From: Salinispira sp.
GTDB taxonomy: Bacteria > Spirochaetota > Spirochaetia > DSM-27196 > Salinispiraceae
Assembly: GCA_965602015.1 (NCBI GenBank)
Contig: OZ271918.1
Span: forward strand, 2,880,001 to 2,944,000
Reading direction: 5' to 3'
Length of the DNA: 64,000 nucleotides
The translations under genes and the position numbers were made by a program. The first letter of the stretch is position 1; every line of letters starts with the position of its first letter. Below are positions 18,791-33,486 of the stretch, in pieces. Under the pieces are notes generated by a model. It searched no databases. It saw only the letters and a program-made list of their open reading frames with translations, and had not been told where the DNA came from.

Positions 18791-18819
18791 ATAGTACCAG
18801 TGGAGTAAATGCCCGTCAA
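18791..18819 (-). promoter_or_regulatory. sigma70-type promoter of the Fn3 lipoprotein gene
   Basis: TTGACG-17bp-TACTAT on minus. Confidence 0.6.
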
Positions 18820-18832: not shown

Positions 18833-19201
18833 TTATTCGTCGGGGTCGACGCAGCCCGGATCTTCGGGCTGAAACAGCCCTTCGAGGAAGCGGATGATCT
18901 GCAGTATGCGGTCGTCCTTCAACCGGTAATGAATCTGTTTGCCCCGGCGTTCTTTATCCAGGTAGCCCGCCATCCACATCATCTTTAATTGCTGGCTGAC
19001 GTTGGATGTATTGGCTCCGCAGATCTCCACCAGCTGGGAAACCGTGAAGGGCTGCTCGGACAGGGCGCAGAGAATGTGGAAGCGCACCGGATTTGACATG
19101 GTCCCGATGACCTGTTCAACCCGTGAGCAGCGAATGTCCGCAAAGCGCGCCTTTATATGCTTAATCACATTCCCCGCGTCACCTGTCTGATTTACTTCCA
19201 T
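18833..19201 (-). CDS. ArsR/SmtB family transcriptional regulator
   Basis: SNPVRFHILCAL, SNVSQQL, RRGKQIHYRL; start overlaps the nfnB stop. Confidence 0.9.
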   Translation of the reverse strand: MEVNQTGDAGNVIKHIKARFADIRCSRVEQVIGTMSNPVRFHILCALSEQPFTVSQLVEICGANTSNVSQQLKMMWMAGYLDKERRGKQIHYRLKDDRILQIIRFLEGLFQPEDPGCVDPDE

Positions 19202-20715
19202 TTTCCATCCTTGAGATCCCGGGTAATTGCCTCCGCAGCCCGGCGACCTTCGCCCATGGCGAGGATTACCGTCGCTGCTCCCAGGACAATGTCGCCTCCG
19301 GCATACACGCGGTCCATGGTGCTGCGGTTCTCTTCATCGACCACAATATTGCCCCATTTATTGGTACCCAGATCCTCTGTGGTCTGCCGGATAAGGGGGT
19401 TGCTCACATTGCCGAGGGCGGGGATGACCGTATCCATTTCAAGCTCGAATTCGCTGTTTTCAATCGGCACGGGCCGACGCCGGCCGGAGTCATCGGGTTC
19501 GCCGAGCTCGTACTTTTGAACCTCTATGGCCCGGACCTTGCCCTCTTCGTCGCCGAGAATCCGGGTGGGGTTGTGGAGAAAGTGGAAGCGTATACCCTCT
19601 TCCATGGCATGCTCAATCTCCTCGGCGCGGGCGGGCATTTCTTTCCTGGTTCTACGGTAAATCACATTGACCTCTTCGGCTCCCAGGCGAAGGGCCATTC
19701 GGGCGGCGTCCATGGCGACATTGCCTCCGCCGAGCACCGCAACCTTTTTCGACGGATAAATCGGCGTGTCCACGTGATCCCTGTCATAGGCCTTCATGAG
19801 ATTGCTGCGGGTGAGGTACTCGTTTGCGGAAAAAACCCCGACCAGGTTTTCACCGGGAATGTTCATAAACCGCGGCAGTCCTGCGCCGGAGCCGATAAAA
19901 ATCGCATCAAATCCGTCCTTTTTTATCAGATCTTCAATAGTGCGGGTTCTGCCGATGAGAAAATTCAGGTGAAAGGTGACGCCCATAGCCTCCAGGGTGG
20001 CGATTTCCTTCTCCACTATGGCCTTGGGCAGACGAAACTCGGGAATTCCGTAGATCATGACCCCGCCGGGTTTGTGGAAGGCCTCGAAAATTTCAACCTG
20101 GTGTCCCGCCTTGCGAAGATCCGCCGCCGCCGTGAGTCCCGCGGGTCCCGATCCCACAACCCCGACCTTGAAGCCCGTGTCGGGGCCGGTTTCAGGAACG
20201 CTGACCGTACCATGCTCCCGTTCCCAATCCGCAACATAGCGCTCGATGCGACCGATGGCCACGGACTTCATCGGATCTTTGAGACTCTTGCCGACGGTGC
20301 AGTACTCCATGCATTGAACTTCCTGCGGACAGACCCGGCCGCAGATTGCCGGGAGTAGGCTGCTGGCCTTTATGGCGTTAACAGACCCCTGGAAGTCGCC
20401 GTCCAGAGCCTTTTGAATGAAGGCCGGAATGTCGATGGAAACCGGGCAGCCCTTTATGCAGGGGGCGGTCTTGCACTGGAGGCAGCGGAGGGCTTCAACC
20501 TTCACCTGGTCTTCAAAATAGCCCAGGGCAACCTCGCTTTGGTTTTTCCCCCGCTCTACCGGGTCCTGGGCGGGCATGTCCATCTGGGGCAGCGAGATTC
20601 GGTCCTTTACCTTCAGCTCGTCCTGACGGCCGCCGAACTCGCTCCAGAGTTTTTTCGCCTCTCCGGCAAGGGCTTCAGGGGTTTTATATTCGTGGCTTTC
20701 CATTGCAGTGCTCAT
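19192..20715 (-). CDS. nfnB: NfnB/SudA large subunit of NADH-dependent Fd:NADP+ oxidoreductase (often annotated gltA)
   Basis: RCLQCKTAPCIKGCP, CGRVCPQEVQC, IGRIERY, GIPEFRLPK, GGGNVAMDAAR, GAATVILAMGEG; paired with nfnA. Confidence 0.9.
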   Translation of the reverse strand: MSTAMESHEYKTPEALAGEAKKLWSEFGGRQDELKVKDRISLPQMDMPAQDPVERGKNQSEVALGYFEDQVKVEALRCLQCKTAPCIKGCPVSIDIPAFIQKALDGDFQGSVNAIKASSLLPAICGRVCPQEVQCMEYCTVGKSLKDPMKSVAIGRIERYVADWEREHGTVSVPETGPDTGFKVGVVGSGPAGLTAAADLRKAGHQVEIFEAFHKPGGVMIYGIPEFRLPKAIVEKEIATLEAMGVTFHLNFLIGRTRTIEDLIKKDGFDAIFIGSGAGLPRFMNIPGENLVGVFSANEYLTRSNLMKAYDRDHVDTPIYPSKKVAVLGGGNVAMDAARMALRLGAEEVNVIYRRTRKEMPARAEEIEHAMEEGIRFHFLHNPTRILGDEEGKVRAIEVQKYELGEPDDSGRRRPVPIENSEFELEMDTVIPALGNVSNPLIRQTTEDLGTNKWGNIVVDEENRSTMDRVYAGGDIVLGAATVILAMGEGRRAAEAITRDLKDGKWK

Positions 20716-20793
20716 TATTATGTTCCTCTTTTGAACGCGCCGAAAGGTCGGTAGGCAATGCTCCGGCCGGCTCGGCATCTGTTGTCCGCCGGA

Positions 20794-21684
20794 TTATCCG
20801 GCGTTACCCGCTGCGGCAGGGGATTTTCCCGCTTCGATCCTGCCCTCCGCATTGCCCTTGAGCCCGATATTGCATTTATGGGCCGCTTCCTGCTCGTGCT
20901 TCTTGTAGGCTTTCTGACGGAGCATCATGTTGTCGAAATCAACAAGGTGAGCGTCGAATTCGGGCCCGTCGACGCAGACGAACTTTGTCTCCTCACCGAC
21001 GGTAACCCGGCAGCCCCCGCACATTCCCGTGCCGTCGACCATAATCGTATTGAGGGAGACCAAGGTGTGGACTCCAAAGGGCCGGGTGGTTTCGGCGCAG
21101 AATTTCATCATTATCGGAGGGCCGATGGCGACCACTTCAGCCGGAACGCCGGCTTCGCAGAGCTCCTTGAGGGGCTCGGTCACCAAAGCTTTTCGGCCGT
21201 AGCTACCGTCATCGGTGCAAATAATCACCTCGTCCGACCAGGTATTCATCTCGTCTTCCATGATCAACAGGTCGCGATTCCTGGCGCCCATGATGGTGAT
21301 GACCTTGTTGCCAGCTTTTTTATAGGCCTGAACGATGGGATGCATGGGCGCAACGCCTATTCCGCCGCCCACGCAGACCACGGTCCCCAGCTTTTCTATT
21401 TTCGTCGGGGTGCCCAGGGGACCGAGAACGTTTTTGATATGATCGCCTTCGTTCAGGGCCGCCAGGTTCATGGTGGTCTTGCCAACCGCCTGGAAAATAA
21501 TCGTGATGGTGCCGGCGTTTTCGTCGGCATCAGCGATGGTAAGGGGGATGCGCTCCCCGAAATTAGTGTCGAGCTGAATAATGAGGAATTGCCCGGCTTT
21601 CCGGCCTTCGGCGATAAACGGCGCTTCAAACACCATTTTGAATACGTCGGCGGAAAGCTGTTCCTTTTTTACGATCTTGTTCAT
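20794..21684 (-). CDS. nfnA: NfnA/SudB small subunit (FAD, [2Fe-2S])
   Basis: GERIPLT, GPLG, GGGIG, MVDGTGMCGGCRV…CVDGPEFD. Confidence 0.92.
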   Translation of the reverse strand: MNKIVKKEQLSADVFKMVFEAPFIAEGRKAGQFLIIQLDTNFGERIPLTIADADENAGTITIIFQAVGKTTMNLAALNEGDHIKNVLGPLGTPTKIEKLGTVVCVGGGIGVAPMHPIVQAYKKAGNKVITIMGARNRDLLIMEDEMNTWSDEVIICTDDGSYGRKALVTEPLKELCEAGVPAEVVAIGPPIMMKFCAETTRPFGVHTLVSLNTIMVDGTGMCGGCRVTVGEETKFVCVDGPEFDAHLVDFDNMMLRQKAYKKHEQEAAHKCNIGLKGNAEGRIEAGKSPAAAGNAG

Positions 21685-21800
21685 ATGATCCCTTGCCTCC
21701 TGTGAGGTTTCCCGGACCCTGGTTCCTGGTACGCAAATCCAGCCGGGGAAACCGCCGGTCTCTCGGTTAGAGTAACACGGCCCGGAAAACTGCGCCCCAA

Positions 21801-23594
21801 CTATTTGATAGGCCTATTTGTCAGGTATAAATCAATTCCCTTGGCGGCCGAGTGTCCGTTGGCGATGGCGCTGATGGCATCCCGTTTCCAGTTGGTTATG
21901 TCCCCCCCGGCGAAAATCTTTTCATCGCCGGTGCGTTTATACTCGTCAACTTCGACTATTCCGCCTTTGGGAAAGACCAGATTCGCCGCAATCTCCTCGG
22001 GGATAAAGCTGTAATCCGCCGCCTGGCCGATGGCCGGAATCACCGTATCGCATTCGATGAGCTCTTCGCTGCCCTCGATGAGTTGGGGCCGCGGCCGTCC
22101 GCCGCGGGGATCGGCGACCATTTCAGCCTTGCCCCAGTAGAGTTTGAGTCGGGTCCCGCCCTGAGTCGGATCACCCTTTTCAATCCTCAAGGGAATGGCC
22201 TGGGTGGTGAGAACACAGCCCTCTCCCTGACTTTCGTGAATTTCCTCTTCATCGGCGGGCATGTCTTCCTCCCGCCGGCGGTACAGGATGGTAACCTCGG
22301 CGCCGTACCGTCGACTGGTGCGTGCAGCGTCCATCGCCACGTTACCTCCACCAACCACCACGACGGATTTTCCGATGTCGGGGGTGACGCCGTTGGTCAC
22401 ATCGTCGAGGATCTTTAAACCGGAAATCACCCCTTTGTTTTCCTCACCGGCGATATTCAATCCGTAGGGGTCGTTAAGGCCCGTCGAAAAAAAGATCGCG
22501 TCGTGCTTATCGTAGATATCCTTGAAATCCACATCGACGCCGATGCGCAGATTTTGCTCAATGACAACTCCCAGGCTTCGGATATACTCAACATCCTTGT
22601 CCACCTGATCATAGGGTAGCCGGTACTCCGGGATGCCGTAGCGAAGCATGCCGCCGGCTTTTTCGTTGGCGTCGTACACTGTTACGTCATAGCCCAGAAG
22701 CCGCAGGTAGTATGCCGCCGCCAGACCGCCCGGTCCCGAACCGACGACTCCGATATGCTTTCCGTTGGGCTTCTCTCCGCTTTCCAGAATGCCCTGGTAA
22801 TCATTGAGATAGATTTGATCGACGATGTATCGCTTGAGCCATCGAATACTGATGGCTTCGCCCTTGTGTTTTACCGTGCAGACGTGTTCGCAGGAATGGG
22901 AACACACCCGTCCGCAGCTTGCCGGAAGAGGATTGGCGTTGTACACCACTTTCAAACCTTCGCCCATATCGTCCTTCCTGATTGCATCGATGTACGCCGG
23001 AACGTCCATGTGGGCCGGACAGGTGGCGATGCAGATACCGCAGGCTATGCAGCGGTCGGCCTCTTCCATGGCCTGTTCCTTACTGTACCCCTGCACCATT
23101 TCGACAAAGCTCTTTTGGCTTTCTTCGAAGGAGAGCATGGGCATTTCAACCCGCTTGCCTTCGAGAAGTTCGTAGCCCGGAGCCCGAAAGTAACCTTTCT
23201 CGTCGTTATCCCAGGGCTTGGCGTCATGGCCGGGAACAAAGCGGAACACTTCGGGGTCGCTGTCTATCCAGACATACTCATTGCTCATGCCCAGGCTGCC
23301 GGTGGGGCAAACATCCACGCAGAGGGCGCACCAGCAGCAGCGGCCGTAATCTACCTTCGGGCGCAAACCGGAGTCGCCATGCCGGGCATCCCTGACCGGA
23401 ACCAGATCGATGGCCTCGTTCTGACAGATAGTTTCGCAGGTGCCGCAGCCGACGCATTTGTCGATATCATTTTGATGAAAGCCCCGGTACCGGTCTGCTC
23501 CGGGACGGGTTTCAAGCGGCCGGCGGTTTGTATAGGGCTTGGCAAAGGCGCGCTTCCACACGGAAAACGGCGCAACTATATCTTTCAAACTCAT
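21801..23594 (-). CDS. mbxN: MbxN/NuoI-like 2x[4Fe-4S] domain fused to a GltD-like FAD/NADPH oxidoreductase
   Basis: N-terminal YRGFH, CVGCGTCETIC and CCWCALCVDVCP; then RCIACGICIATCP, CGRVC, GSGPGG, GIPEYRLP, GGGNVAMD, YRRR. Confidence 0.85.
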   Translation of the reverse strand: MSLKDIVAPFSVWKRAFAKPYTNRRPLETRPGADRYRGFHQNDIDKCVGCGTCETICQNEAIDLVPVRDARHGDSGLRPKVDYGRCCWCALCVDVCPTGSLGMSNEYVWIDSDPEVFRFVPGHDAKPWDNDEKGYFRAPGYELLEGKRVEMPMLSFEESQKSFVEMVQGYSKEQAMEEADRCIACGICIATCPAHMDVPAYIDAIRKDDMGEGLKVVYNANPLPASCGRVCSHSCEHVCTVKHKGEAISIRWLKRYIVDQIYLNDYQGILESGEKPNGKHIGVVGSGPGGLAAAYYLRLLGYDVTVYDANEKAGGMLRYGIPEYRLPYDQVDKDVEYIRSLGVVIEQNLRIGVDVDFKDIYDKHDAIFFSTGLNDPYGLNIAGEENKGVISGLKILDDVTNGVTPDIGKSVVVVGGGNVAMDAARTSRRYGAEVTILYRRREEDMPADEEEIHESQGEGCVLTTQAIPLRIEKGDPTQGGTRLKLYWGKAEMVADPRGGRPRPQLIEGSEELIECDTVIPAIGQAADYSFIPEEIAANLVFPKGGIVEVDEYKRTGDEKIFAGGDITNWKRDAISAIANGHSAAKGIDLYLTNRPIK

Positions 23595-23685
23595 GTGCTT
23601 ATCTCCTCGTATCTACAGGCTCGATGCCTGAGGGTTGGGGAACCGGACCCCGATGGGCATTCGCCGCAGCGGCCGGAAACCCGCC

Positions 23686-24879
23686 TCAACGCTCAACCTC
23701 GGGCGGATAGGTGTGCAGGGACACCATAAGGCCCGCGGTATCGGCGATGTTCACACCGATGGACAGCCGCTCCATGAGGGCAACCGCATGGGTGTAGCTG
23801 GGTCCGCGAACGTAGATCCTCCGGGGTTTGTCGCTACCGTCTGTGTTCAAATAAAATCCGTACTCCCCCCTGGTACATTCAGCCTTGCGGTAGGTCTGGC
23901 CGGCTTCGATGCGCCAGTGAAGCACGTTGGGAAGCTGGGTATGGAACTCTCCCTGCCCTGAGCGACTGTCGAGGTGATCCATGATTTGGCGCATAAGATC
24001 GATCGACTGGTACATTTCCCGCAGCCGGACCCGGGCGCGGGCGAAGGCGTCGCCGCCGTCCTCGGTAATTATGTCAAAATCGAGGCGGTCGTATACGCCG
24101 TAGGGCTGGTCCTTCCTCAGGTCGCGGCGGATGCCCGAAGCCCGGGCATTGGGGCCGGTTATTCCGTAGGCGTCGATCATTTCCGGTTCGATGATGCCGA
24201 GTTTCTTCGCCCGGGCCTTAAATACCGCATTGTGGAACATGGCCAGTTCCACATCGTCCAGGGTGCCCTGGACAGTATCCAGAGTTTCCCGCAGACGCTT
24301 GGTCCAACCGATGGGCAGGTCGGCCCGGACGCCGCCGGGAATCATGTACATATGATAAATCCGGCCACCGGAGACTTCCTCGAAGCGGTCCAGCATGTAG
24401 TCCCGCATGGTGACCGTCCATTGGCCCAGGGTTCCCATACCGAATGAACCGGCCTGACCGCCAAGCCACATGAGGAAACTGGTCAGCCGGGACATTTCGA
24501 GTTGGAGGGTCCTTATCCATTTGGCGCGCTCGGGAATCGAAACCCCGGCGAGCTCTTCGGTGACCTCCGCAAAGAGGTACTCGTTAAAGTCCGGCTCGGG
24601 TACTGCGATGCGGCACACGATGGGAAAGCACTGAATGAATTTTCGCCGCTCCATCAGCTTCTCGAAACCCCGGTGCAGATAGCCGACGTGGGTGGTGCAT
24701 TCGACGATTTCCTCGCCGCAGGTGACCAGCTCCAGGCTCATATTGCCGGTAATGCCCGGGTGTTGGGGTCCCTGCCAGACCTTGAGATACTTGCCGCTCT
24801 CCAGGTCGAAGCTCGCCTTTCCGTTTACCAAAGGCGGCAATTTGGGATCGCTATTTATATTCGCCAGATTACTTACCAT
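23686..24879 (-). CDS. mbxL: MbxL/NuoD-like subunit (hydrogenase large-subunit homologue without NiFe ligands)
   Basis: GPQHPG, GYLHRGFEKL, PGGVR, RGE, RGPS; RIAVPE and HTYPPEVER in place of the CxxC motifs. Confidence 0.88.
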   Translation of the reverse strand: MVSNLANINSDPKLPPLVNGKASFDLESGKYLKVWQGPQHPGITGNMSLELVTCGEEIVECTTHVGYLHRGFEKLMERRKFIQCFPIVCRIAVPEPDFNEYLFAEVTEELAGVSIPERAKWIRTLQLEMSRLTSFLMWLGGQAGSFGMGTLGQWTVTMRDYMLDRFEEVSGGRIYHMYMIPGGVRADLPIGWTKRLRETLDTVQGTLDDVELAMFHNAVFKARAKKLGIIEPEMIDAYGITGPNARASGIRRDLRKDQPYGVYDRLDFDIITEDGGDAFARARVRLREMYQSIDLMRQIMDHLDSRSGQGEFHTQLPNVLHWRIEAGQTYRKAECTRGEYGFYLNTDGSDKPRRIYVRGPSYTHAVALMERLSIGVNIADTAGLMVSLHTYPPEVER

Positions 24880-25415
24880 TTCTCAGCCTCCGAGGGGTAC
24901 AGTTCTTTCCTCATGTGTTCCCGGGGGTCGTGGGTTACCCGTCCGGGACGCTCGTAAAAGGTCTCTTCGGAATACTTCCGGGTATCGAAGTCCCTCCGCA
25001 TTGGAGGCAGGCCCTCCCAGCCCTCGAGAATGAAATTCTCGCCCACCCTCGGACTGCCGGGAAAATTGACGCCGAACATCTCAAACAATTCCTGCTCATA
25101 TGTGACTGCAGCGGGCCAAAGATGATGTATGCTGTCCGCCTCTGCCCGCTCCCTGTCGATGGGCACGGTGATGCAGAGGTCAAGTTTGGCGTCATAACTA
25201 TGGAGCATGTACTTCAGATCGAACTTCCCCTCCTCGATGCGGTCGACCGCAGAGAAAAAACTCAAATGGGTGAAGCCCTCAAGCTGCTTCAGGTGAGTGA
25301 TCAGAGCCACAGCATCGGACTGATCGACGACGATGAAGGCCTGATCCTCCCGCTGGCGGTGCACCTGGGTGATTCCGAAGCGCAGCGCCAGCCTGTTGAA
25401 AAATTCCTGTTTCAT
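24873..25415 (-). CDS. mbxK: MbxK/NuoC-like subunit
   Basis: SIHHLWPAA, YEQELFEMFGVNFPG, PPMRRDF. Confidence 0.88.
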   Translation of the reverse strand: MKQEFFNRLALRFGITQVHRQREDQAFIVVDQSDAVALITHLKQLEGFTHLSFFSAVDRIEEGKFDLKYMLHSYDAKLDLCITVPIDRERAEADSIHHLWPAAVTYEQELFEMFGVNFPGSPRVGENFILEGWEGLPPMRRDFDTRKYSEETFYERPGRVTHDPREHMRKELYPSEAEKW

Positions 25416-25436
25416 ATCCGGTTCTCCTCGCTCCGC

Positions 25437-26291
25437 CTACCAGTTGTAGTCCGGCATATTCCAGTCTTTGATGATCCGCTTCTGGTTGGCTTTGTACCAA
25501 TCGAAATTCTCGGCGTAGAGGTTCGCCCCCTCGCCCTTGCCGTCGCGGATCCTGTTCTTTAGCTGATTGATTCCCGCAAGGAGCGCCTCGGGACGGGGCA
25601 TGCAGCCGGTGACGTACACGTCCACCGGTATGTAGTGATCCAAACGGTTTACCGTATTGTAGCTGTCCCAGTACATTCCGCCGTTAATGGTGCAGCTTCC
25701 AAGGCCCATGACGAATTTCGGTCCCTGCATCTGCTCATAGGATCGGACGATGCGCTTCATGGTTTTTACGCTGGCATATCCGCCGATGATAAACAGGCCG
25801 GACTGACGGGGAGTGGGCCGGGCCTGGACCCCGTACTGATACATGTCGAAGCGGCTGGTCATCAGGGGGCGCAATTCGATTGCGCCGCATCCCGTTCCGA
25901 AGCCCAGAATCCACAGGGATTCGCTCCGCGCCCAGTTCAGGAAGTTTTCCCAGATGCCCCGGAAGGGCTTGGCGACTTCGGGCTTTTGGTCGCAGAAATG
26001 CATGCGGTCCCAGTCGGGCAGGTCCCGGTTCAGCAGGCGGCCGTTTTCATCATAGAGAGGAACGTTTTCACCGCCGGCTGCCCAGAGGTCGGCCTGTCGG
26101 GACCGATGGTCGGCGGAATTGCCGTCGGCCCATTTTTTCGGCAGGGTCCTCAGGTCGGGGTTTTCCACCGGGGTTCCCAGGTAGTTTGTCATATCGGGAA
26201 TGCGGGAACCGTGGACCTCGGGGGTTGCCAGGGGATTGCCCGCTTTGCTCAGACGCTGTCCGTCATGGTCTTTTACCAGTTCAGTACTCAC
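25437..26291 (-). CDS. mbxJ: MbxJ/NuoB-like Fe-S subunit with N-terminal extension
   Basis: GTGCGAIE, RFD, TPRQ, YEQMQGPKFVMGLGSC, PVDVYVTGCMPRPE. Confidence 0.88.
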   Translation of the reverse strand: MSTELVKDHDGQRLSKAGNPLATPEVHGSRIPDMTNYLGTPVENPDLRTLPKKWADGNSADHRSRQADLWAAGGENVPLYDENGRLLNRDLPDWDRMHFCDQKPEVAKPFRGIWENFLNWARSESLWILGFGTGCGAIELRPLMTSRFDMYQYGVQARPTPRQSGLFIIGGYASVKTMKRIVRSYEQMQGPKFVMGLGSCTINGGMYWDSYNTVNRLDHYIPVDVYVTGCMPRPEALLAGINQLKNRIRDGKGEGANLYAENFDWYKANQKRIIKDWNMPDYNW

Positions 26292-26301
26292 ATTTCACTC
26301 C

Positions 26302-27276
26302 TTAAATCATCTGCAGGACCACCGCGGCGATTCCTATGAGGGTCGGAACCCCGAGGAAGAAGCGGATGGACTGGTCGGTGCGGAACCGGGGGAAGCTGGC
26401 TCCCACGATGACGGTGTAGAGATAAATCAGGAAGGTCTTGAGGATCATAATCCCCAGGCCTCCGACGACATTCATAAAGGCCCAGCCTCCCTCGAACAGG
26501 GTCAGCACCGGCGCCCCGCCCCAGAACAGGTTCATAAAAAGCACCAGTTTTGCGCCTTGGAAAACCGCCCGGTTGGTTTGAAGCATTCCCAGAAAGCTGG
26601 ACTGCATTTCCGTAGGAGGACCAATGGGGATTTCCTGGGGGGCGATGACGACGCTGAAAGGGTTGCCCATACTCATCCCGAGGAAGGCAAGCATGCCGGC
26701 GGCCATGGCCAGGGGATTGGTAAACGCGGTCCACCTTGTCACGTCCAGGACTCCCGAGCCCTGCTGGGCAGCGACGATCTCGGTAATGTTGAAGCTGCCG
26801 TACTGGGCGACAATGGCGATCACCGCAAGCGCGAAGGGCAGCTCGAAAGCGGTCATCTGTGCAAGCCCGCGGCTGACTCCGATTGGGCTGTAGGGGTGGC
26901 CGCTCTCGCTGGCGCCCAGAGCCATCCCCAGCTGTCCGAAGAAAATAAAATACATCACCAACAGCAGATCGCCGGAAAAAGACAGATTGGCGAACAGCGC
27001 CGACCCGTAGATCACCGGAATGAACATATATGTACCGATCCCGCCGGCCAGGCGGAAGACCGGGCCCAAATAGAACATGACGCCGTGATTGATGGCGTGG
27101 CGCCGGGCGTTATTCTTTATGATATCGATGTACGGCTGATACACCGGCTGACCGATTCGGCCCTGGACCTTGGCCCGAACCCGGGCCATGGTACCCATCA
27201 AGAGCAGACCGTAGTTGAGCACCACGAAGAGACTAATCGCGGCGTAGAGTATTTTTATCGGAATTTGACCGATCAT
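26302..27276 (-). CDS. mbxM: MbxM/NuoH-like membrane subunit
   Basis: AKVQGRIG, QPYIDIIK, PF…APQEI..GP.TE, FPRFR.DQ. Confidence 0.9.
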   Translation of the reverse strand: MIGQIPIKILYAAISLFVVLNYGLLLMGTMARVRAKVQGRIGQPVYQPYIDIIKNNARRHAINHGVMFYLGPVFRLAGGIGTYMFIPVIYGSALFANLSFSGDLLLVMYFIFFGQLGMALGASESGHPYSPIGVSRGLAQMTAFELPFALAVIAIVAQYGSFNITEIVAAQQGSGVLDVTRWTAFTNPLAMAAGMLAFLGMSMGNPFSVVIAPQEIPIGPPTEMQSSFLGMLQTNRAVFQGAKLVLFMNLFWGGAPVLTLFEGGWAFMNVVGGLGIMILKTFLIYLYTVIVGASFPRFRTDQSIRFFLGVPTLIGIAAVVLQMI

Positions 27277-30200
27277 TTACATCCCTCCTCTGGTGAACAG
27301 AAACACCAGCAGCAGATACAGCAGAATCTGGAAACCGTAGGTCTGGGCATTGCCGGTATTCCACCGGCGAAGTCCGTCGCCCAGCGACTTCGTCACATCG
27401 CCCAGGCCGGACCAGAAGCGGGTGGCCCATGGCGAAGCCAGGAAACCCAGGGCTTTTTGGTAATGGGAGAAAAAGTTGAATGCGTAATGGGTTGTTTCCG
27501 GCTTGTAGGGCCGTTCTGCGGAGTATACGATGTTGAACTGTTTTACCTTCACGAGTTTTTTGCCCGAGTTTGCCACGAGAAGCAGAACGAGCGGCAGGGC
27601 GAAGACTCCCATGGTGACGTACATGACCGCATTGCCGTTCCAGTAACCCAGGCTTGAAATGACCTCATAGCCATTCCAGCTCACGGTGGCGGCGAACAGG
27701 GGTTCGACGGCGGCCTGGAGCGGCTTGATGATGAGATTGGGATACATGGAGACGGCCATAATTCCCGCCATGAAGATGAACTGGGGAATGAGTTGAATCA
27801 CCGGAGCTTCCTTTACATGTACAAGATTGTCTTTTGGCTGCCCGAGGAAGATTGAGTGTATCAGCCGGTACAGGTAGAGAAAGGCGACCCCTGAAGAAAA
27901 CATGGCGACGGCGGCCTGAAGGTACCAGCCCTTTTCCATGAGGGCGGTGTAAATGAGCCACTTACCGCCGAATCCGCTCAGCGGGGGAACCCCCGACACG
28001 GCGATAATCGCGAACAGCACCGAGAGGAAACTGAAGGGCATTGTTTTAATCAGCCCGCCCATCTTGTACATCAGCCGGGTTCCGGTACGTTGGATGACTC
28101 CCAGTACCGCGAGCCAGAGCATTCCCTTGAACATCAGGTGAGTGATGGCCAAATAGAGGCTTGCCACATAACCCATGTGACTCATGGTGGCCATTGCAAG
28201 GACGATGTAGCCCACCTGACCCATGGACGAATACGCCAGGGTATACTTTATATCTTCCTGAAAGAGGGCCATAAGGGCTCCGGCGACGGCGGTTATCGCC
28301 CCGATCCACCCCAGAAGAGAAGCCATTGGTATGCCGGCCGTGGCATTGCCCGACCATGCGGGAACCAACCTGGATGCCAGAACTCCCCCAAAGAGCATCA
28401 GAAGGAAAATGCCGGCCTTGCTGAGCACCGAGGAAAGCAGGGCGCTGACATCGTCCTCAGCCTCGGCGTAGCCTGCGGGGAGCCACAGATGGAGGCCGAT
28501 TCCGCCCAGTTTTATCAGGGCGGCCAGCCCGATCATAAGGGCGGCAAGGCGAACCCCCGGCGCATTTTCTATTCCGCTTCCGGCAAATGCCATTATCCAG
28601 GGATTGCCGCCGGAAAATGCTCCGGCGACCTGCAGAATGAGTATTCCCGCCAACAGGGCATAGGCGGAAAACAGGGAGAAAACGATGTAGCGCATGGCCC
28701 CTGCGGCGGCTTTGTTTCCGCGCACAATGAGGAAAAAGCTGGTTACGGTCATCATTTCCCAGGCGAAGAAGAGTTCGAGGCCGGTTCTGGCCATTACCAG
28801 CGCGGCAAGCGAGGTACTCAAGCCCGCAATAAGGGCCATGAGCCCGTCGCCCCTGCCCTTGCGGGTCAGGAAGGCCGGTAGCTGCACAGCGGTTCCCCCC
28901 AGGAAAACAATCATAAAAATCTGCGGAAGACCGCCCAGACCCGGAACCGTGAGGTACCCCAGGGCTCCGATTCCGATAATAGCCAGGATAATCTGCAGCT
29001 TCTGGGGAATTCGAAAGAGATCAAGCAGGGCAAAAACCAGAACTGCCGCTACGGGCAACAGGATCCATGGCGCAATGCTGAACAGCGACATCCACAGCCC
29101 GTAGCCCGCAAGCAGGGCTGAGGAAACCGCAGGGATTCCCGCCGCCCACCGGGAGCGAGCCCGGCCCTCAATGGCAGGCGCACCGGCGGCGGCGGTATCA
29201 TCGGCGGTGAAGTCGGCGGGTACTGATTCGCCCAGGGTTGCGCCGTCATCGGCTTCGCTGCGGGCCAGCGACAGGAACCACTTGAACAGGTAAACCGCTT
29301 CTATCAGCGACCCCAGCAGGATAACGGCGGTGTAAGCCCAGCCGCCGGAAGCTATGAGGTTTTGAATAACCGTCCACTTCACCCAAAACGACGGGAAGGG
29401 AGGAAGGCCGATCAGGGCTAAAATTGAGATCGCCATTAGTATTAATAGGAAGGGCCGGCGGCGCAGGCTTCCCGTTGAAGAGGATGCATCGGCGCCGATC
29501 ATCTCGGATACCCAGAAAAGCCCCGCCTTCGCCAGGGCGTGATTAAGAAGGAGGAAAACTGCAAGTGCCACCACCGACTCGGGAACAACCGAGAGCACCA
29601 AAAGAACCAGCCCGGTCTGGGCGATGGATGACAGTCCCAGCATTCTGCGCAGATTCGGCTGATTGATGGCCATGAGTCCGGAAACGATGAATCCGATTGC
29701 GCCGAGAATTCCGATGACCCTCGTGAGAGCCGGCGCCGCATGGGAGACCAGGGGCATGGCTTTGATAAGCACGCTCACCATTGCCGTGGTAAAAACCGAA
29801 CTGAGAAGGGCGCCGATTCCCGGGTCCGCGGCCTGGTAGGTATCCAGAGCCCACCCGTTCGCGAAAGCCGGCTTGAGTTCTATAACAACCCCGGTGATAA
29901 AAAACACCATAGCCAGCAGTCCGGTCAGGCCGGCGAAAATTCCCGCATCGGTGGCGAGCATGGCCTCGAGATTAAGGGTGCCGCTGATTCGATACAGGAA
30001 GGCCACCCCAATGAGATAGAAGGTGGAGGCAAGACCCCCGGCTATCATGTATTTAAATCCCGCTTCATAGCTTCGGACATCCCGACTGGTGGACAGGAGG
30101 CCGTACAGGGCTATGGAGGTGATTTCCATAAACACAAAAATATTAAACAGATCGCGGGTAAGCACCAGGCCGTTCGCCCCGAGTATCATGACAAAAAACA

Positions 30201-30534
30201 GCACGACCTGCTTGCCCTTCCAGGGCTGTTCAACGTGATACTGCTGCCAGGCGAGGGCCAGCAGCCCGATGAGATTCATCACGGCGATGATTACCGCCTC
30301 GTTCTGACCAACCATCAGGTTTATCGAGAGGGGAGCGGAAAAACCGGCGGTCTGCACGACGATAGGCGCAGCGCCTGCGCCGAGCTGCAGGTACCACAGA
30401 ACTCCTGCGGCGGTAAAACCGGTCATGACCAGAAGCCCGAGAGCCGTAGCGATGTGTCTTCCGAGTTTCTCTATCAAGGGATAGAGAAAGGCGAAGCCCA
30501 GGGCCGTTGCGATAAGAAGAATCGGGCTTACCAT
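27277..30534 (-). CDS. mbxH: fused double MrpD/NuoN-L-type ion-translocating subunit (MbxH-MbxH' fusion)
   Basis: Two antiporter-like domains in one 1085-aa ORF. First: DLFNIFVFMEI, GFKYM, NHALAKA, GLPPF. Second: FFAWEMM, HLWLP, LAYSSMGQVG, HLMFKG, GVPPLSGF. Start MVSPILL at 30534. Confidence 0.88.
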   Translation of the reverse strand: MVSPILLIATALGFAFLYPLIEKLGRHIATALGLLVMTGFTAAGVLWYLQLGAGAAPIVVQTAGFSAPLSINLMVGQNEAVIIAVMNLIGLLALAWQQYHVEQPWKGKQVVLFFVMILGANGLVLTRDLFNIFVFMEITSIALYGLLSTSRDVRSYEAGFKYMIAGGLASTFYLIGVAFLYRISGTLNLEAMLATDAGIFAGLTGLLAMVFFITGVVIELKPAFANGWALDTYQAADPGIGALLSSVFTTAMVSVLIKAMPLVSHAAPALTRVIGILGAIGFIVSGLMAINQPNLRRMLGLSSIAQTGLVLLVLSVVPESVVALAVFLLLNHALAKAGLFWVSEMIGADASSSTGSLRRRPFLLILMAISILALIGLPPFPSFWVKWTVIQNLIASGGWAYTAVILLGSLIEAVYLFKWFLSLARSEADDGATLGESVPADFTADDTAAAGAPAIEGRARSRWAAGIPAVSSALLAGYGLWMSLFSIAPWILLPVAAVLVFALLDLFRIPQKLQIILAIIGIGALGYLTVPGLGGLPQIFMIVFLGGTAVQLPAFLTRKGRGDGLMALIAGLSTSLAALVMARTGLELFFAWEMMTVTSFFLIVRGNKAAAGAMRYIVFSLFSAYALLAGILILQVAGAFSGGNPWIMAFAGSGIENAPGVRLAALMIGLAALIKLGGIGLHLWLPAGYAEAEDDVSALLSSVLSKAGIFLLMLFGGVLASRLVPAWSGNATAGIPMASLLGWIGAITAVAGALMALFQEDIKYTLAYSSMGQVGYIVLAMATMSHMGYVASLYLAITHLMFKGMLWLAVLGVIQRTGTRLMYKMGGLIKTMPFSFLSVLFAIIAVSGVPPLSGFGGKWLIYTALMEKGWYLQAAVAMFSSGVAFLYLYRLIHSIFLGQPKDNLVHVKEAPVIQLIPQFIFMAGIMAVSMYPNLIIKPLQAAVEPLFAATVSWNGYEVISSLGYWNGNAVMYVTMGVFALPLVLLLVANSGKKLVKVKQFNIVYSAERPYKPETTHYAFNFFSHYQKALGFLASPWATRFWSGLGDVTKSLGDGLRRWNTGNAQTYGFQILLYLLLVFLFTRGGM

Positions 30535-30887
30535 TTGAGCTCCTTGTTTCTGTCGATCATCAGCGATCGCTTGTGATAAAACATTTTTACCGCGTAGCTG
30601 AGCATCAGCGCGGTAACCGCCAACCCGATTACGATAGCCGTAAGCACGAGAGCCGACGGCACCGGATCGACGGCCCACGCCAGGGCTTCCGACGGCGCCA
30701 GATCTCCGTCGAAAATCGGTGCGGTGCCGCCCCTGCGGTATCCGACGGCCACCAGCAGCACATGAATGCCGGTGTCAAGCAGGGTGAATCCGAGAATGAT
30801 CTTTATCAGATGACGTCGGGTCAGAAGTCCCCAGATGCCCAGGAGCATCAAGGCCGACGCTATGATTATCATGATCTGGGTTATCAT
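30528..30887 (-). CDS. mbxG: MnhC/MbxG subunit
   Basis: TAPI…VDPVPSALVLTAIVIG; start corrected to MITQI at 30887. Confidence 0.9.
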   Translation of the reverse strand: MITQIMIIIASALMLLGIWGLLTRRHLIKIILGFTLLDTGIHVLLVAVGYRRGGTAPIFDGDLAPSEALAWAVDPVPSALVLTAIVIGLAVTALMLSYAVKMFYHKRSLMIDRNKELKW

Positions 30888-31618
30888 GCTTTTCTCCTCA
30901 TGACGTCGATGACGCCTGAAAGCTCTGAGCCGACCTTTATACCCACCAGCGAGTAGATCACCGGGATTGCTCCGGCGCTGAACAGCTGCCCGAAGCTCCC
31001 GGCGGGCAAAAACCGGGGGTCCAGAAAACCCGCCGCAAGCCAAATCCCCAAAAGGCCGATGGCCACATAGCCCGCCCCTGCAAACATTTCCAGGACATTC
31101 ACTGCAGAATGATTCAGTTCGTGAAGGGTGCCCGAGAGAAAGGCGAGCAGGATTGCCGAGGCGATGACGACCCCGCCCTGAAAGCCGCCGCCGGGGGTCA
31201 GATGTCCATGGGCGAAAATGTACACCCCGAACAGTAGAAACAGGGGAAGCAGAATTCCGCTGGCAGTCTTTAAAATTTCACTTGCTTCTATGCGGCAGGG
31301 CAGTTCTTCCCACCCGCAGCCCTCGCTGGGCTCGCTGGTATGACTATCAGCGGGGGATTGCCGGATAAACTGGAATACCAAAGCGATGCCTGCGGCGGCG
31401 GCGAAGAGCACCGTGACCTCGCCCAGGGTGTCCAGCCCACGGTAGGTGACGACCACAGATGTCACCAGGTTCGCAGCGCCGAGGTCATTATCGCCGTTCT
31501 CCAGGTAACGGGCGGCCAGTTCTCCCACTTCATCGCGGTCCTCCATGCTCTGCATCAGGGGGAAAAAGGATGCCGCCAGGGCGACCATCAGTGCGATGGT
31601 TAACAGACGCTTAAGCAT
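30884..31618 (-). CDS. mbxF: MnhB/MbxF subunit
   Basis: NLVTSVVVTYRGLDTLGE, GHLTPGGGFQGG, GIKVG. Confidence 0.9.
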   Translation of the reverse strand: MLKRLLTIALMVALAASFFPLMQSMEDRDEVGELAARYLENGDNDLGAANLVTSVVVTYRGLDTLGEVTVLFAAAAGIALVFQFIRQSPADSHTSEPSEGCGWEELPCRIEASEILKTASGILLPLFLLFGVYIFAHGHLTPGGGFQGGVVIASAILLAFLSGTLHELNHSAVNVLEMFAGAGYVAIGLLGIWLAAGFLDPRFLPAGSFGQLFSAGAIPVIYSLVGIKVGSELSGVIDVMRRKA

Positions 31619-31964
31619 TGCCACCCTCCTGATTTTCCGTGAGTTTTTGGTTCTGATTCACATCAGGGTCGACGGAAATGCCTCCCGCGGTGTCGCTGTC
31701 GGTCTCCGGAATCGCGTCGGCGTCCCTCAGCCGTTTTATCCGGCTCCAGGCAAACAGGAAGACTACCGTCGTCAGACCCGAACCGATGGCGGCTTCAGTC
31801 ATCGCCACATCCGGAGCCCCGGCAATTAAATAGACAATGCTGGCCATGAGGGATACCACGCCGGATGCGATTATCGCGCCGACGATGTCCTTGCTGAGAA
31901 TGACCATAACGCCGCTACCGAGAATCATGATTCCCATAATTATCAAGGCGATTTCCACAATCAC
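31611..31964 (-). CDS. mbxD: MbxD/MbhD (DUF4040-like) subunit
   Basis: APDVAMTEAAIG motif. Confidence 0.88.
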   Translation of the reverse strand: MIVEIALIIMGIMILGSGVMVILSKDIVGAIIASGVVSLMASIVYLIAGAPDVAMTEAAIGSGLTTVVFLFAWSRIKRLRDADAIPETDSDTAGGISVDPDVNQNQKLTENQEGGNA

Positions 31965-32350
31965 TGTACACCTCCGCTATTATCAGGCCCCAGGACTCCC
32001 TGTTCATCTTTCCACTGACGAAGCTGATCAGCCCCGTGGAGTTCCCGGCCTTTCACCTTGATATCCAGGGGATCGACTCCCAGATAATGGGCTGAACGGC
32101 TGAGGGCATGTGATGAAACGGGGTTTGTCATCAGGACAAAAATCCCCAGCAGCAGGAGCTTGGCCCAGGAAGCGGGCGCGACGAATATGAGTCCCAGCAC
32201 CACCAGCATGGTGCCCAGGGTGGTGGCCTTGGTTCCCGCCTGCATGCGGCTATATACATCGGGCATACGAATAAGGCCGAGAGACGCCAGGAAAAGAAAC
32301 AGCGAACCGATGAGGGCGATTGCCGCCCCGATAAATGCCAATCCTTCCAT
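31961..32350 (-). CDS. mbxC: MnhG/MbxC subunit
   Basis: GLIRMPDVYSRMQAGTKATTLG, NPVSSH. Confidence 0.9.
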   Translation of the reverse strand: MEGLAFIGAAIALIGSLFLFLASLGLIRMPDVYSRMQAGTKATTLGTMLVVLGLIFVAPASWAKLLLLGIFVLMTNPVSSHALSRSAHYLGVDPLDIKVKGRELHGADQLRQWKDEQGVLGPDNSGGVQ

Positions 32351-32619
32351 TACAGTTCTCCTTCGCCGAATCGGGCCACTGCCACGACCCCGAGAAAACT
32401 CAGGAGGCCATACACGAGTGCCACATCCAGATACAGCATTCTTCCGAGGAAGTGGGAAAGAATGGCTATTGCGGACAGCGACATGATGGTCATGGCGTCG
32501 AAGGCCACCACCCGGTTTATGTATCCCGGTCCGATAAGAAAGCGCACGAAACTGATCAGCATGGACAGGAGTGTTATGGCCCCGGAAACATAGAGCAGGG
32601 CCTGTGTTGCACTAGCCAA
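32350..32619 (-). CDS. mbxB: MnhF/MbxB subunit
   Basis: RFLIGP…RVVAFD…YLDVALVYGLLSF; TTG start after GGAGG inferred. Confidence 0.85.
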   Translation of the reverse strand: MASATQALLYVSGAITLLSMLISFVRFLIGPGYINRVVAFDAMTIMSLSAIAILSHFLGRMLYLDVALVYGLLSFLGVVAVARFGEGEL

Positions 32620-33124
32620 AGATAACCTCCAGATATTTTTCGAAGCCGCCAACGATTTTCTCGCTGTTCTCATCAACGTCGCAGCATGTTCCATCGGCAT
32701 CATCGATGCTCAACCAATGGATAAAGAGCTCGTCGCCGTGGATGTCCACGGTAATGGTTCCCGGCGTCAGGGTGATCGAGTTGGCCAGGATCAGTCGGCC
32801 CAGAGGGGATTTGAGTCTCGTTTTGACCTTCACGATGCCCGGGTTGATGGGCAGACGGGGATGAAGCACCCGGAAGGCCACGTCGATATTCGACTTGATT
32901 ACCGCCCACAAAAACACCAACAGGTAGATAAACGCATAGCCCAATCTTTTGGGCATAAGCGAGATGTCGCCGTACGCCGACATCGCCGGCAATGGCAGAA
33001 CGGCGATTAAAAGGGCTACCGCCGAGCCGAGTATCAGTTCCTGCAGGGAAAACGGAGCGGTAAGCAGGAGCCAGAGCCCCAGCAGTATGGCGAAAAGAAT
33101 TACGCTCATTCCCAGTCGCTTCAT
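32612..33124 (-). CDS. mbxA: MnhE/MbxA subunit
   Basis: PGIVKVKT, LANSITLTPGT, LFIHW. Confidence 0.92.
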   Translation of the reverse strand: MKRLGMSVILFAILLGLWLLLTAPFSLQELILGSAVALLIAVLPLPAMSAYGDISLMPKRLGYAFIYLLVFLWAVIKSNIDVAFRVLHPRLPINPGIVKVKTRLKSPLGRLILANSITLTPGTITVDIHGDELFIHWLSIDDADGTCCDVDENSEKIVGGFEKYLEVIFG

Positions 33125-33168
33125 GCAGCCTCCTCGATTTTTTTTTCTGATTTATTGAACGAATTATC

Positions 33169-33222
33169 TATAAACTTTTATAGTTTATAATTTATTAAAG
33201 TATTGAATTTAAAATCTGTCAA
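33169..33222 (-). promoter_or_regulatory. promoter of the mbx-nfn-arsR operon with an overlapping palindromic operator
   Basis: TTGACA (33222-33217)-17bp-TTTAAT (33199-33194); perfect inverted repeat TATAAACT-N5-AGTTTATA at 33169-33189. Confidence 0.65.
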
Positions 33223-33312
33223 GATAATTAATGCAGGTTTATTATGAGTGTTTTTATCAGGTATTCGGTTGATGCCGGCACAGGGACGGTCCCCGTGATT
33301 CCGCGCAAGCGC

Positions 33313-33469: not shown

Positions 33470-33486
33470 CGTGATAGGATCAGCCG

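What the first reader, a model, noticed from the sequence alone, without database searches (positions are those of the whole stretch)
18833..33222. Mbx/MBS-like ion-translocating complex linked to NADPH: mbxA-N(GltD fusion), nfnAB and ArsR in one apparent operon
Seen: 15 co-oriented, mostly overlapping genes encoding MnhE, F, G, DUF4040, B, C, a double MrpD fusion, NuoH, B, C, D, a NuoI-GltD fusion, NfnA, NfnB and ArsR. There is a promoter at the head, and the next gene has its own promoter. Established: this subunit order matches the Mbx/MBS complexes of Thermococcales and Thermotogae, and NfnAB is the electron-bifurcating NADH/ferredoxin:NADP+ oxidoreductase. Inference: Nfn and the membrane complex exchange NADPH, giving an Rnf-independent Na+/H+ energy-conserving circuit in a probable spirochaete. 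The reaction at the NuoB/NuoD site is unknown because the hydrogenase and MBS cysteines are missing. This is the best candidate for an undescribed system in the window.
Basis: partly seen in the sequence, partly recalled or inferred. Interest (0 to 1): 0.85.

Follow-up and report, generated by a model that had tools for sequence, protein, structure and literature searches.

The report
NADPH-fed sulfur-reductase operon with cysteine repressor
A spirochaete gene cluster joins a bacterial relative of the archaeal sulfur-respiring MBS ion pump, carrying a predicted NADPH port, to the genome's only Nfn transhydrogenase genes and a two-cysteine repressor, so the cell likely converts fermentation electrons to NADPH and would spend them on polysulfide to pump ions; the pump's layout is already known from genomes and none of this has been measured.

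Summary
Observation confirmed: 15 co-oriented genes (18833-33124), namely 12 mbx genes, the genome's only nfnAB and an ArsR. Every subunit searched matches Pyrococcus MBS best. The NuoI-GltD Mbx layout was described in 2015, and this scan has met it repeatedly on other DNA. Two first-reader claims fail. The genome encodes Rnf. The "missing" cysteines are those shown dispensable in MBS, while the three-cysteine catalytic cluster is kept (73/73 relatives), and quinone residues H38/Y87 are absent. Not found in the papers searched: nfnA follows mbxN in 16 of 27 other Mbx-bearing genomes of the order (8 unlinked, 3 undecidable); two relatives lost mbx but kept its promoter before nfnAB; MbxN has an NADP-type, StnC-like (likely non-bifurcating) port; and the BigR/SqrR-like ArsR has an invariant α1+α2 cysteine pair instead of α2+α5, with a palindrome over the promoter that tracks arsR (16/16 versus 0/27). 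Best reading (0.55): Nfn makes NADPH from NADH and reduced ferredoxin; the complex likely oxidises it to cleave polysulfide, moving about one ion per two electrons. Acceptor, direction, ion and inducer are untested. New variant of a known kind; interest 0.5.

The parts
33217..33222 (-). -35 hexamer TTGACA of the predicted operon promoter (-10-like TTTAAT at 33199-33194)
   Evidence: sequence; TTGACA lies 20-23 nt before the palindrome in 16 of 16 arsR-linked promoters
33181..33202 (.). candidate ArsR operator: palindrome of consensus TTYAA-N6-WTRAA overlapping the -10 region
   Evidence: top-scoring site of the 3.87 Mb genome (18.6 bits, next 17.3) with a matrix trained without this genus; leave-one-out 13.8-24.3 in 16/16 arsR-linked promoters, at most 4.4 in 27/27 others
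32612..33124 (-). mbxA (MnhE-like)
   Evidence: PF01899
32350..32619 (-). mbxB (MnhF-like)
   Evidence: PF04066; best PDB hit MBS 6u8y_B
31961..32350 (-). mbxC (MnhG-like)
   Evidence: PF03334; best PDB hit 6u8y_C
31611..31964 (-). mbxD (MbhD/DUF4040)
   Evidence: PF13244
30884..31624 (-). mbxE (MbhE + MnhB domains)
   Evidence: PF20501 + PF04039
30528..30887 (-). mbxG (MnhC-like)
   Evidence: PF00420
27277..30534 (-). mbxH-H' fusion, two antiporter-like units (1085 aa)
   Evidence: residues 5-420 match 6u8y_H, 495-1077 match 6u8y_X; a fused protein of about 1040-1180 aa is usual among complete loci
26302..27276 (-). mbxM (NuoH-like membrane anchor)
   Evidence: PF00146
25437..26291 (-). mbxJ (NuoB-like), with three cluster ligands C135, C200, C230 and Gly at the MbsJ C25 position
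   Evidence: 6u8y_J 212 bits against at most 129 for complex I/NDH and 80 for MBH; each ligand 73/73
24873..25415 (-). mbxK (NuoC-like)
   Evidence: PF00329
23686..24879 (-). mbxL (NuoD-like), without [NiFe] motifs or the quinone residues H38/Y87
   Evidence: 6u8y_L 301 bits against 208 for Nqo4 and 133 for MbhL; T44 aligns to H38 and V93 to Y87; only PF00346 hit in the genome
21801..23594 (-). mbxN: NuoI-like 2x[4Fe-4S] domain fused to a GltD/StnC-type FAD-NADP(H) domain
   Evidence: 6u8y_N for residues 8-123; Stn/Nfn-type flavoproteins for the rest; YRR motif and K254 = StnC K170
20794..21684 (-). nfnA (Asp/Cys3 [2Fe-2S] motif DGTGMCGGC); only copy in the genome
   Evidence: NF004862 above cut-off; single match at E<=1e-30
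19192..20715 (-). nfnB (open frame from 20778; likely start about 20715), with Glu158 at the cluster-ligand position
   Evidence: best PDB hits T. maritima NfnB 4ylf (535 bits) and P. furiosus NfnI 5jca (486 bits); TIGR01316 above cut-off
18833..19201 (-). ArsR-family regulator, BigR/SqrR-like, with invariant C25 (helix α1) and C45 (helix α2) and no conserved α5 cysteine
18791..18819 (-). promoter-like site of the next gene (680-aa fn3 protein); marks the probable 3' limit

Best explanation
The 12 mbx genes encode an MBS-type membrane complex with a fused flavoprotein, and it likely works as an NADPH:polysulfide oxidoreductase fed by the probably co-transcribed NfnAB and likely controlled by the cysteine-bearing ArsR. 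Step 1 (established Nfn chemistry, inferred here): NfnAB confurcates NADH and reduced ferredoxin from fermentation into 2 NADPH. Step 2 (inferred from motifs): NADPH reduces the FAD of the MbxN GltD domain, which passes electrons one at a time, without bifurcation, through its two [4Fe-4S] clusters and the two NuoI-type clusters to the three-cysteine cluster of MbxJ. Step 3 (inferred from MBS): the open iron of that cluster cleaves an internal S-S bond of polysulfide, and the M/H/H' arm with the Mrp-like module converts this into an H+/Na+ gradient. My estimate is about one ion per two electrons, half of what ferredoxin-fed MBS can pay for. Step 4 (inferred): ArsR binds the palindrome over the -10 region and is released when sulfane sulfur modifies C45 and C25. 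The circuit would run beside Rnf and the HydABC-type hydrogenase as an alternative electron sink when S0 is present.
For: MBS is the best solved relative of L, J, N(8-123), H, H', B and C. In a FastTree of 145 sequences the family is a 1.0-supported clade apart from [NiFe] large subunits and FpoD, next to two unnamed sequences with MBS-like motifs (0.85). Ligands C135/C200/C230 are kept in 73/73, with no fourth cysteine in the motif. The absent cysteines are dispensable in MBS, and H38/Y87 are absent. MbxN has YRR, as do 9 of the 10 nfn-linked loci among L001-L080; 29 of 74 homologues have another motif there, mostly acidic. K254 (74/74) matches StnC K170 of a non-bifurcating FAD site, while the operon's NfnB has Glu. 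nfnA directly follows mbxN in 16 of 27 other Mbx genomes of the order, in 4 other families. Two mbx deletion relics keep promoter, palindrome and nfnAB. The ArsR is nearest to BigR/YgaV by sequence and tied among BigR, HlyU, YgaV, SmtB and SqrR by fold; in SqrR the reactive cavity is lined by α2, α5 and α1'. T. maritima mbxA rises 4.36-fold with S0, and Mbs and Nfn share the SurR regulon in Thermococcales. The genome has YeeE transporters, 16 rhodanese-domain matches and a CoA-disulfide-reductase-rhodanese fusion, but no NrfD/PsrC.
Against: I found no activity measurement for a bacterial GltD-fused Mbx. The driving force is small: -10 kJ/mol at standard potentials and -19 to -31 kJ/mol with assumed in-vivo values, against -41 for ferredoxin, while the complex keeps two pump units (assumed potentials). 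The ArsR lacks the α5 cysteine that defines SqrR/BigR sensors and scores far below the BigR cut-off (51.6 against 155). The operator matrix finds no strong site before the YeeE, rhodanese or CoA-disulfide reductase genes (best 8.2 bits), and sulfur genes were not found beside the operon; outside this clade the common neighbour is rubrerythrin (16 of 60 ORFs scanned). The link is optional: 8 of 27 genomes are unlinked, 13 other spirochaete loci have mbxN-arsR without nfn, and nfnA is common without Mbx. The type species of the genus named for the nearest locus did not use S0 (PMC4511686 passages); the operon is patchy in the genus (1 of 2 other genomes), so that phenotype cannot be transferred. 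Two new near-invariant cysteines (MbxL C89 79/80, MbxJ C100 63/73) could indicate another substrate.
Confidence: 0.55

Rival explanations
1. Same architecture and NADPH input, but the acceptor is another S-S or oxidant species (organic persulfide or disulfide such as CoA-SS-R, or a peroxide route through rubrerythrin), so the complex serves redox defence or thiol balance more than S0 respiration.
For: Clade-specific cysteines MbxL C89 (79/80) and MbxJ C100 (63/73); rubrerythrin follows mbxN in 16 of 60 scanned downstream ORFs (also noted in PMC4758237); non-canonical ArsR cysteine pair; no sulfur genes found next to the operon.
Against: The MBS-type three-cysteine site is unchanged; MBS itself reduces an organic trisulfide in assays, so the two readings overlap; this operon has no rubrerythrin.
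Confidence: 0.17
2. The complex runs near equilibrium or backwards: an ion gradient made by Rnf or the V-ATPase drives electrons from sulfide or short polysulfide to NADP+, or ferredoxin still docks on the NuoI domain as the main donor and the GltD domain is a side port.
For: Small NADPH-to-S0 driving force against two pump units; Rnf and a V-type ATPase are present; many relatives are sulfur oxidisers such as Thiothrix and Chromatiaceae.
Against: Most of those oxidiser copies carry the acidic, NAD-type motif rather than YRR; the host carries a fermentative toolkit (group A6 [FeFe]-hydrogenase) and already makes NADPH with Nfn.
Confidence: 0.13
3. Older literature model: an ion-pumping ferredoxin:NADP+ oxidoreductase, with Nfn re-oxidising the NADPH.
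For: Proposed for Thermotoga, proteobacteria and Mesotoga (PMC4758237; bioRxiv 322537); an NADP(H) site is present.
Against: The proposal predates the MBS structure. Ferredoxin entering at the NuoI clusters would reach the fused FAD without passing the J/L/M interface where coupling is placed, so pumping would not follow, and the invariant three-cysteine site would have no role.
Confidence: 0.09
4. An NADPH:quinone oxidoreductase using a scavenged naphthoquinone.
For: Two MenA-like prenyltransferases, both below cut-off.
Against: H38 and Y87 equivalents absent, no tandem CC in MbxJ; no MenB over cut-off and no MqnA/D match.
Confidence: 0.06

Closest known systems
[quoted passage not shown]
   Same: Subunit set and order, Mrp-like module, two antiporter-like units, three-cysteine proximal cluster, no [NiFe] site.
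   Different: H and H' fused; N fused to a GltD-type NADP(H) domain instead of being ferredoxin-fed; C25, C85 and C385 equivalents absent; extra cysteines L-C89 and J-C100 and an N-terminal extension of about 110 aa on J; nfnAB and arsR in the same operon.
Bacterial mbx-like operons with a NuoI-GltD fusion (Thermotoga MBX, proteobacteria; PMC4758237, PMC9431562)
   Same: Same design, including the flavoprotein-fused last subunit; no enzyme assay in the passages read.
   Different: Ends in nfnAB-arsR rather than rubrerythrin; NADP-type YRR motif, whereas most proteobacterial copies here have an acidic motif. The Thermotoga proteins themselves were not compared.
NfnAB (T. maritima 4YLF, P. furiosus NfnI 5JCA)
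   Same: Best structural relatives; Asp/Cys3 [2Fe-2S] motif, Glu at the proximal-cluster position, the Arg next to FAD and the NADP motif are kept.
   Different: Only the genomic setting: sole copy, placed under the mbx promoter.
StnC GltD domain of Sporomusa ovata Stn (8OH5; PMC10482914)
   Same: Lys at the proximal-cluster ligand position (K254 = K170); NADPH entry module wired to an FeS chain.
   Different: Wired to a NuoI domain and a membrane arm, not to a HydBC-like module; Val at the C114 position.
SqrR/BigR/HlyU/YgaV persulfide-sensing ArsR repressors
   Same: Nearest by sequence and among the top tied folds; α2 cysteine kept (C45).
   Different: No conserved α5 cysteine; an invariant α1 cysteine (C25) instead; extra N-terminal helix; small family (54 clusters), spirochaete where named.

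Membership tests
MBS/Mbx | Mrp-like small subunits + two antiporter-like units + M, J, K, L, N in one operon | tested here: met
   (H and H' fused)
MBS/Mbx | Closest solved relative of the core subunits is MBS rather than complex I, MBH or FHL | tested here: met
   L 301 vs 208/133/91 bits, J 212 vs 129/80/58; also N, H, H', B, C; M, K, A, D, E, G not searched
MBS/Mbx | Proximal [4Fe-4S] with three cysteine ligands (MbsJ C28, C93, C123) | tested here: met
   C135, C200, C230 each in 73/73; sequence only, and C100 outside the aligned part is not excluded as a ligand
MBS/Mbx | Ferredoxin as donor on a stand-alone MbsN | tested here: not met
   N is fused to a FAD/NADP(H) domain, so this is the bacterial variant and not MBS in the strict sense; residual ferredoxin docking untested
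MBS/Mbx | Polysulfide/trisulfide reductase activity with ion translocation | not testable with these tools
   needs assay
MBS/Mbx | One clade with Thermococcales MbsL | tested here: inconclusive
   no named MbsL was in the trees; the sister group is two unnamed MBS-motif sequences, support 0.85
Group 4 [NiFe]-hydrogenase (MBH/Ech) | Two CxxC [NiFe] motifs in the large subunit | tested here: not met
   CRIAVPE and HTYPPE at those positions
Complex I / NDH / Fpo | Tandem CC ligation of N2 and quinone residues H38/Y87 | tested here: not met
   GCG instead of CC in 73/73; T44 and V93 at H38 and Y87
NfnAB | Adjacent small (FAD, Asp/Cys3 [2Fe-2S]) and large (FAD, 2x[4Fe-4S] with Glu ligand) subunits | tested here: met
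NfnAB | Electron bifurcation activity | not testable with these tools
   needs assay
MbxN as a bifurcating NfnB-type site | Glu at the proximal-cluster ligand position | tested here: not met
   Lys in 74/74, as in non-bifurcating StnC
SqrR/BigR persulfide sensors | Cysteine in α2 | tested here: met
   C45 in 53 of 53 sequences covering it
SqrR/BigR persulfide sensors | Partner cysteine in α5 | tested here: not met
   no Cys at the BigR C108 column in 54 sequences; a tail cysteine in only 20 of 54 (definition from PMC10054925)
SqrR/BigR persulfide sensors | Polysulfide bridge formation that releases DNA | not testable with these tools
   needs mass spectrometry and DNA-binding assays

The most novel reading that the evidence does not exclude
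A self-contained, sulfane-sulfur-switched respiratory branch in fermenting spirochaetes: a new kind of ArsR persulfide sensor, bridging an α2 cysteine to the α1 cysteine of the partner subunit, derepresses in one transcript an electron-confurcating Nfn and an NADPH-fed MBS pump, so that NADH, too weak on its own, is lifted by ferredoxin to NADPH and respired to polysulfide with ion pumping. The YRR versus acidic motif would further split bacterial Mbx into NADPH-fed fermenter enzymes and NADH-linked enzymes of sulfur oxidisers.
Probability: 0.25. Interest if true: 0.78.

Novelty: new variant of a known kind. Interest (0 to 1): 0.5.

Why it matters
What the widespread bacterial Mbx-GltD complex does is open: papers call it a ferredoxin:NADP+ oxidoreductase, a sulfur reductase, or of unknown function and direction. 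This operon names its likely electron supplier (Nfn, NADPH) and offers a dedicated regulator with a predicted operator, so the inducer can be found with one small soluble protein and a 22-bp DNA. A named species, Marispirochaeta aestuarii, has both the MbxL and this ArsR (its nfnAB linkage was not checked), and Pleomorphochaeta sp. DL1XJH-081 has mbx-arsR (L074). If right, it gives mesophilic fermenters a molybdenum- and quinone-free route to sulfur respiration and adds a new cysteine geometry to ArsR redox sensing.

Tried and rejected
Rnf-independence: rejected (rnfG was not scanned). NfnA pairing with MbxN as a membrane-bound bifurcating unit: considered and dropped because of K254 and the presence of a separate NfnB; no complex prediction was sent. 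Regulon scan: the operator matrix found no sulfur genes; the second and third sites (G000 685820, 2280356) precede unrelated genes. Terminator or unusual structure in the mbxN-nfnA gap, the mbxL-mbxN gap or after arsR: none listed, z-scores 0.23, 0.41 and -0.20. Genes upstream of mbxA: 40 of 91 candidate ORFs scanned, no conserved or sulfur-related neighbour; downstream: 60 of 110 scanned. The ArsR subfamily was not found in 400 other genomes sampled across the phylum but was found in 12 of 98 in the order. PDB search of the V-ATPase K subunit gave no hit, so Na+ versus H+ stays open. The careful tree did not finish; one search is a quick tree with a very long outgroup and was used only to map labels. 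Three look-ups by id found no paper: one was a DOI recalled for the MBS structure paper, later read by PMC id, and two were for Wu et al. 2018. Schut et al. 2013/2016 were not read. Earlier scan notes hold no match for this ArsR or for the nfnAB-arsR link.

Full report
OBSERVATION. The 15 genes are real, co-oriented on the minus strand and in the order given. With corrected starts, 8 of 14 junctions overlap, one abuts, and the largest gaps are 91 (L-N), 116 (N-nfnA) and 78 bp. No minus-strand promoter-like site was listed between 31979 and 18819, and no terminator in the gaps. The nearest locus (92% in MbxL) is titled uncultured Salinispira sp., so the spirochaete guess holds. The genome is one 3.87 Mb contig, 99.67% complete.

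WHAT THE COMPLEX IS. P. furiosus MBS (6U8Y) is the best solved relative of every subunit searched: L 301 bits (Nqo4 208, MbhL 133, HycE 91), J 212 (NDH 129, MbhJ 80), the first 123 residues of N, both halves of the 1085-aa protein, which is MbsH fused to MbsH', B and C. In a FastTree of 145 sequences (14 from the window and loci plus 133 of the 150 representatives went in; 2 gappy rows were dropped) the family is a clade of support 1.0, apart from [NiFe] large subunits and FpoD, beside two unnamed sequences with MBS-like motifs (0.85). No named MbsL was in the tree. The design is widespread: 417 stretches in species genomes encode a relative, and the best 80 include Spirochaetota, Cloacimonadota and sulfur-oxidising Pseudomonadota. 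It is in print: passages of PMC4758237 describe mbx-like operons of Thermotoga and proteobacteria in which NuoI is replaced by a gltD-related flavoprotein, often ending in rubrerythrin. This scan noted it before in other genomes (1 note, 8).

THE CATALYTIC SITE. Passages of PMC7684303 show that C25A MbsJ and C85A/C385A MbsL are as active as wild type, and place catalysis at the unligated iron of a cluster held by C28, C93 and C123 (also PMC8165549). The three ligands are C135, C200 and C230 here, each kept in 73 of 73 aligned relatives, with Gly at the C25 position in all 73. The quinone residues H38 and Y87 align to T44 and V93. MenB over cut-off and MqnA/D were not found; two MenA-like genes are below cut-off. 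Two unexplained cysteines are common in the family: MbxL C89 (79/80) and MbxJ C100 (63/73).

THE INPUT. MbxN keeps four FeS motifs, GGGNVAMD and YRR, the pattern that by established Rossmann-fold rules (recalled) favours NADP(H). Among 74 homologues 45 have YRR and 29 another motif, mostly acidic (ALED or SLET), the latter mainly in proteobacteria and some Cloacimonadota. All 74 have Lys at position 254, which aligns to K170 of StnC (alignment, counted by hand); passages of PMC10482914 report that StnC's FAD does not bifurcate and that NfnB has Glu there. The operon's NfnB has Glu158 and matches T. maritima and P. furiosus Nfn best. So MbxN is likely a plain NADPH port and NfnAB a normal bifurcating transhydrogenase.

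LINKAGE. nfnAB is the only copy in the genome. Of 98 other genomes of the order, 27 have an MbxL match. nfnA directly follows mbxN in 16 (four other families), is not linked in 8, and contig breaks leave 3 undecided. Among L001-L080, some of which are the same genomes, 9 spirochaete loci have mbxN-nfnA, 13 have mbxN-arsR without nfn, and one Marinimicrobia locus (L052) has mbxN-CBS-arsR followed by divergent nfnA/nfnB-like genes. Kin are not independent, and the quick tree shows nfn-linked copies in three spirochaete groups. Two relatives carry deletion relics: G044 joins the start of mbxA to mbxN residue 295 onward, then nfnAB and a truncated arsR; G056 keeps scraps of mbxA, mbxB and mbxN between the promoter and nfnAB. 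In G002 (same genus, complete, no mbx or arsR) nfnA is preceded by TTGACA and a weak box (10.5 bits). These suggest nfnAB is read from the mbx promoter and survives loss of the pump; misassembly of the two fragmented genomes is not excluded. No RNA data were available to test this.

RNF. rnfB, C, D, E and A pass NCBIfam cut-offs in one cluster (G000 2722407-2727398); a second rnfC/D-like cluster, a group A6 [FeFe]-hydrogenase with a NuoF-like partner and a V-type ATPase are present. The operon is an addition to Rnf, not a substitute.

THE REGULATOR. The ArsR is nearest to BigR and YgaV by sequence; by fold BigR, HlyU, YgaV, SmtB and SqrR are tied (Z 15.5-14.6). Among 54 homologue clusters C45 is kept in 53 of 53 and C25 in 52 of 52 that cover the position, and none has Cys at the α5 column. 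The model (pLDDT 89) puts C25 in α1 and C45 in α2. Passages of PMC10054925 define persulfide sensors by an α2/α5 pair, so this is not a member; passages of bioRxiv 2020.03.22.001966 say the SqrR cavity is formed by α2, α5 and α1', so an α1' cysteine could take the place of the α5 one (inference; no distance measured). A palindrome TTYAA-N6-WTRAA lies 20-23 nt after TTGACA in all 16 arsR-linked promoters examined. The pattern was first read by eye from these promoters, so the fixed-pattern count (14/16 against 2/27) is partly circular. Leave-one-out matrix scores are 13.8-24.3 for 16/16 against at most 4.4 for 27/27 loci without arsR, including two nfn-linked spirochaetes of the same clade (L008, L059); 10 loci with short downstream DNA were set aside and scored at most 4.7. 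A matrix trained without this genus ranks 33181-33202 first in the genome. One held-out promoter has the box (17.2) though arsR was not found in that 86% complete genome. No strong site precedes the YeeE, rhodanese or CoA-disulfide reductase genes.

MECHANISM. Most likely (0.55): NADH + reduced ferredoxin -> 2 NADPH (Nfn) -> MbxN FAD -> four FeS clusters -> three-cysteine cluster -> polysulfide cleavage, with ion pumping. With assumed potentials NADPH yields 10-31 kJ/mol per two electrons (0.6-2 ions), NADH 2-12 and ferredoxin 41-50, which explains why an NADPH-making Nfn would be useful and why the reaction may sit near equilibrium. Shown: genes, motifs, linkage, palindrome. Inferred: co-transcription, donor, acceptor, direction, ion, inducer. 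Outside support: S0 induction of T. maritima mbxA (PMC9431562 passages) and SurR sites before both Mbs and Nfn in Thermococcus (PMC8595942 passages). Against: no bacterial assay found, optional linkage, no sulfur genes nearby, the non-canonical ArsR, and no S0 use by the type species of the named genus (PMC4511686 passages), which cannot be transferred because the operon is patchy in the genus.

LITERATURE SCOPE. All papers were seen as search listings and keyword passages only; PMC6085437, PMC11636981 and bioRxiv 322537 were also seen as passages. No figures or supplements were read. Searches returned no description of an mbx-nfnAB-arsR operon or of an α1/α2 cysteine ArsR, but subscription papers are missing, Wu 2018 was not held, Schut 2013/2016 were not read, and operon figures or supplements could show the link.

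VERDICT. New variant of a known kind. The pump is known from genomes and untested; the Nfn coupling, the two input subtypes, the regulator and its operator are the additions and make the open question easier to test. Interest 0.5.

Noticed in passing
window 34304-39867 (-): A second, stand-alone Mrp-type antiporter cluster (MnhE, F, G, B, C, D hits) just upstream of the mbx operon, preceded by PTS EIIA and weak P-II-like genes; a third Mrp-like cluster lies at G000 3.582-3.588 Mb.
   Followed up: partly
G000:C1:2476684-2480878 (L085): Second, divergent rnfC/rnfD-like cluster besides the canonical rnf genes.
   Followed up: partly
L023-L025, L027, L031-L038, L040-L041, L043, L045, L048, L050-L052, L055-L056, L058, L060-L064, L076: MbxN homologues of Thiothrix, Chromatiaceae, Magnetospirillum and some Cloacimonadota replace YRR, mostly by an acidic motif (ALED/SLET; TRK in L031, L041, L058), suggesting an NAD(H)-linked subtype.
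   Followed up: partly
L034, L036, L040, L060, L061, L023, L024, L043 upstream of mbxA: Proteobacterial mbx promoters share a different AT-rich motif resembling GAATAT-N-ATTCTAAT, seen by eye only.
   Followed up: no
L052:11188-14288: Marinimicrobia locus with mbxN-CBS-arsR and divergent nfnA/nfnB-like genes (35%/46%); its ArsR belongs to another subfamily, which suggests an independent recruitment.
   Followed up: partly
L011:1-2211: nfnAB-like genes sit head to head with mbxA instead of downstream.
   Followed up: no
L102 (G044) and L099 (G056): Internal deletions of the mbx genes that keep promoter, palindrome and nfnAB.
   Followed up: yes
G000:C1:1691432-1694540 and 2674925-2676967: YeeE/TsuA-like transporter with two tandem-rhodanese genes, and a CoA-disulfide-reductase-rhodanese fusion: possible sulfur uptake and soluble polysulfide reduction.
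   Followed up: partly
L152 (G464:C18): A divergent Mbx-GltD copy (MbxL 45%) in a same-order genome, branching outside the main family.
   Followed up: partly
window 33240-33480: GC-rich imperfect repeated segments between the mbx promoter and the divergent HAD hydrolase gene.
   Followed up: no
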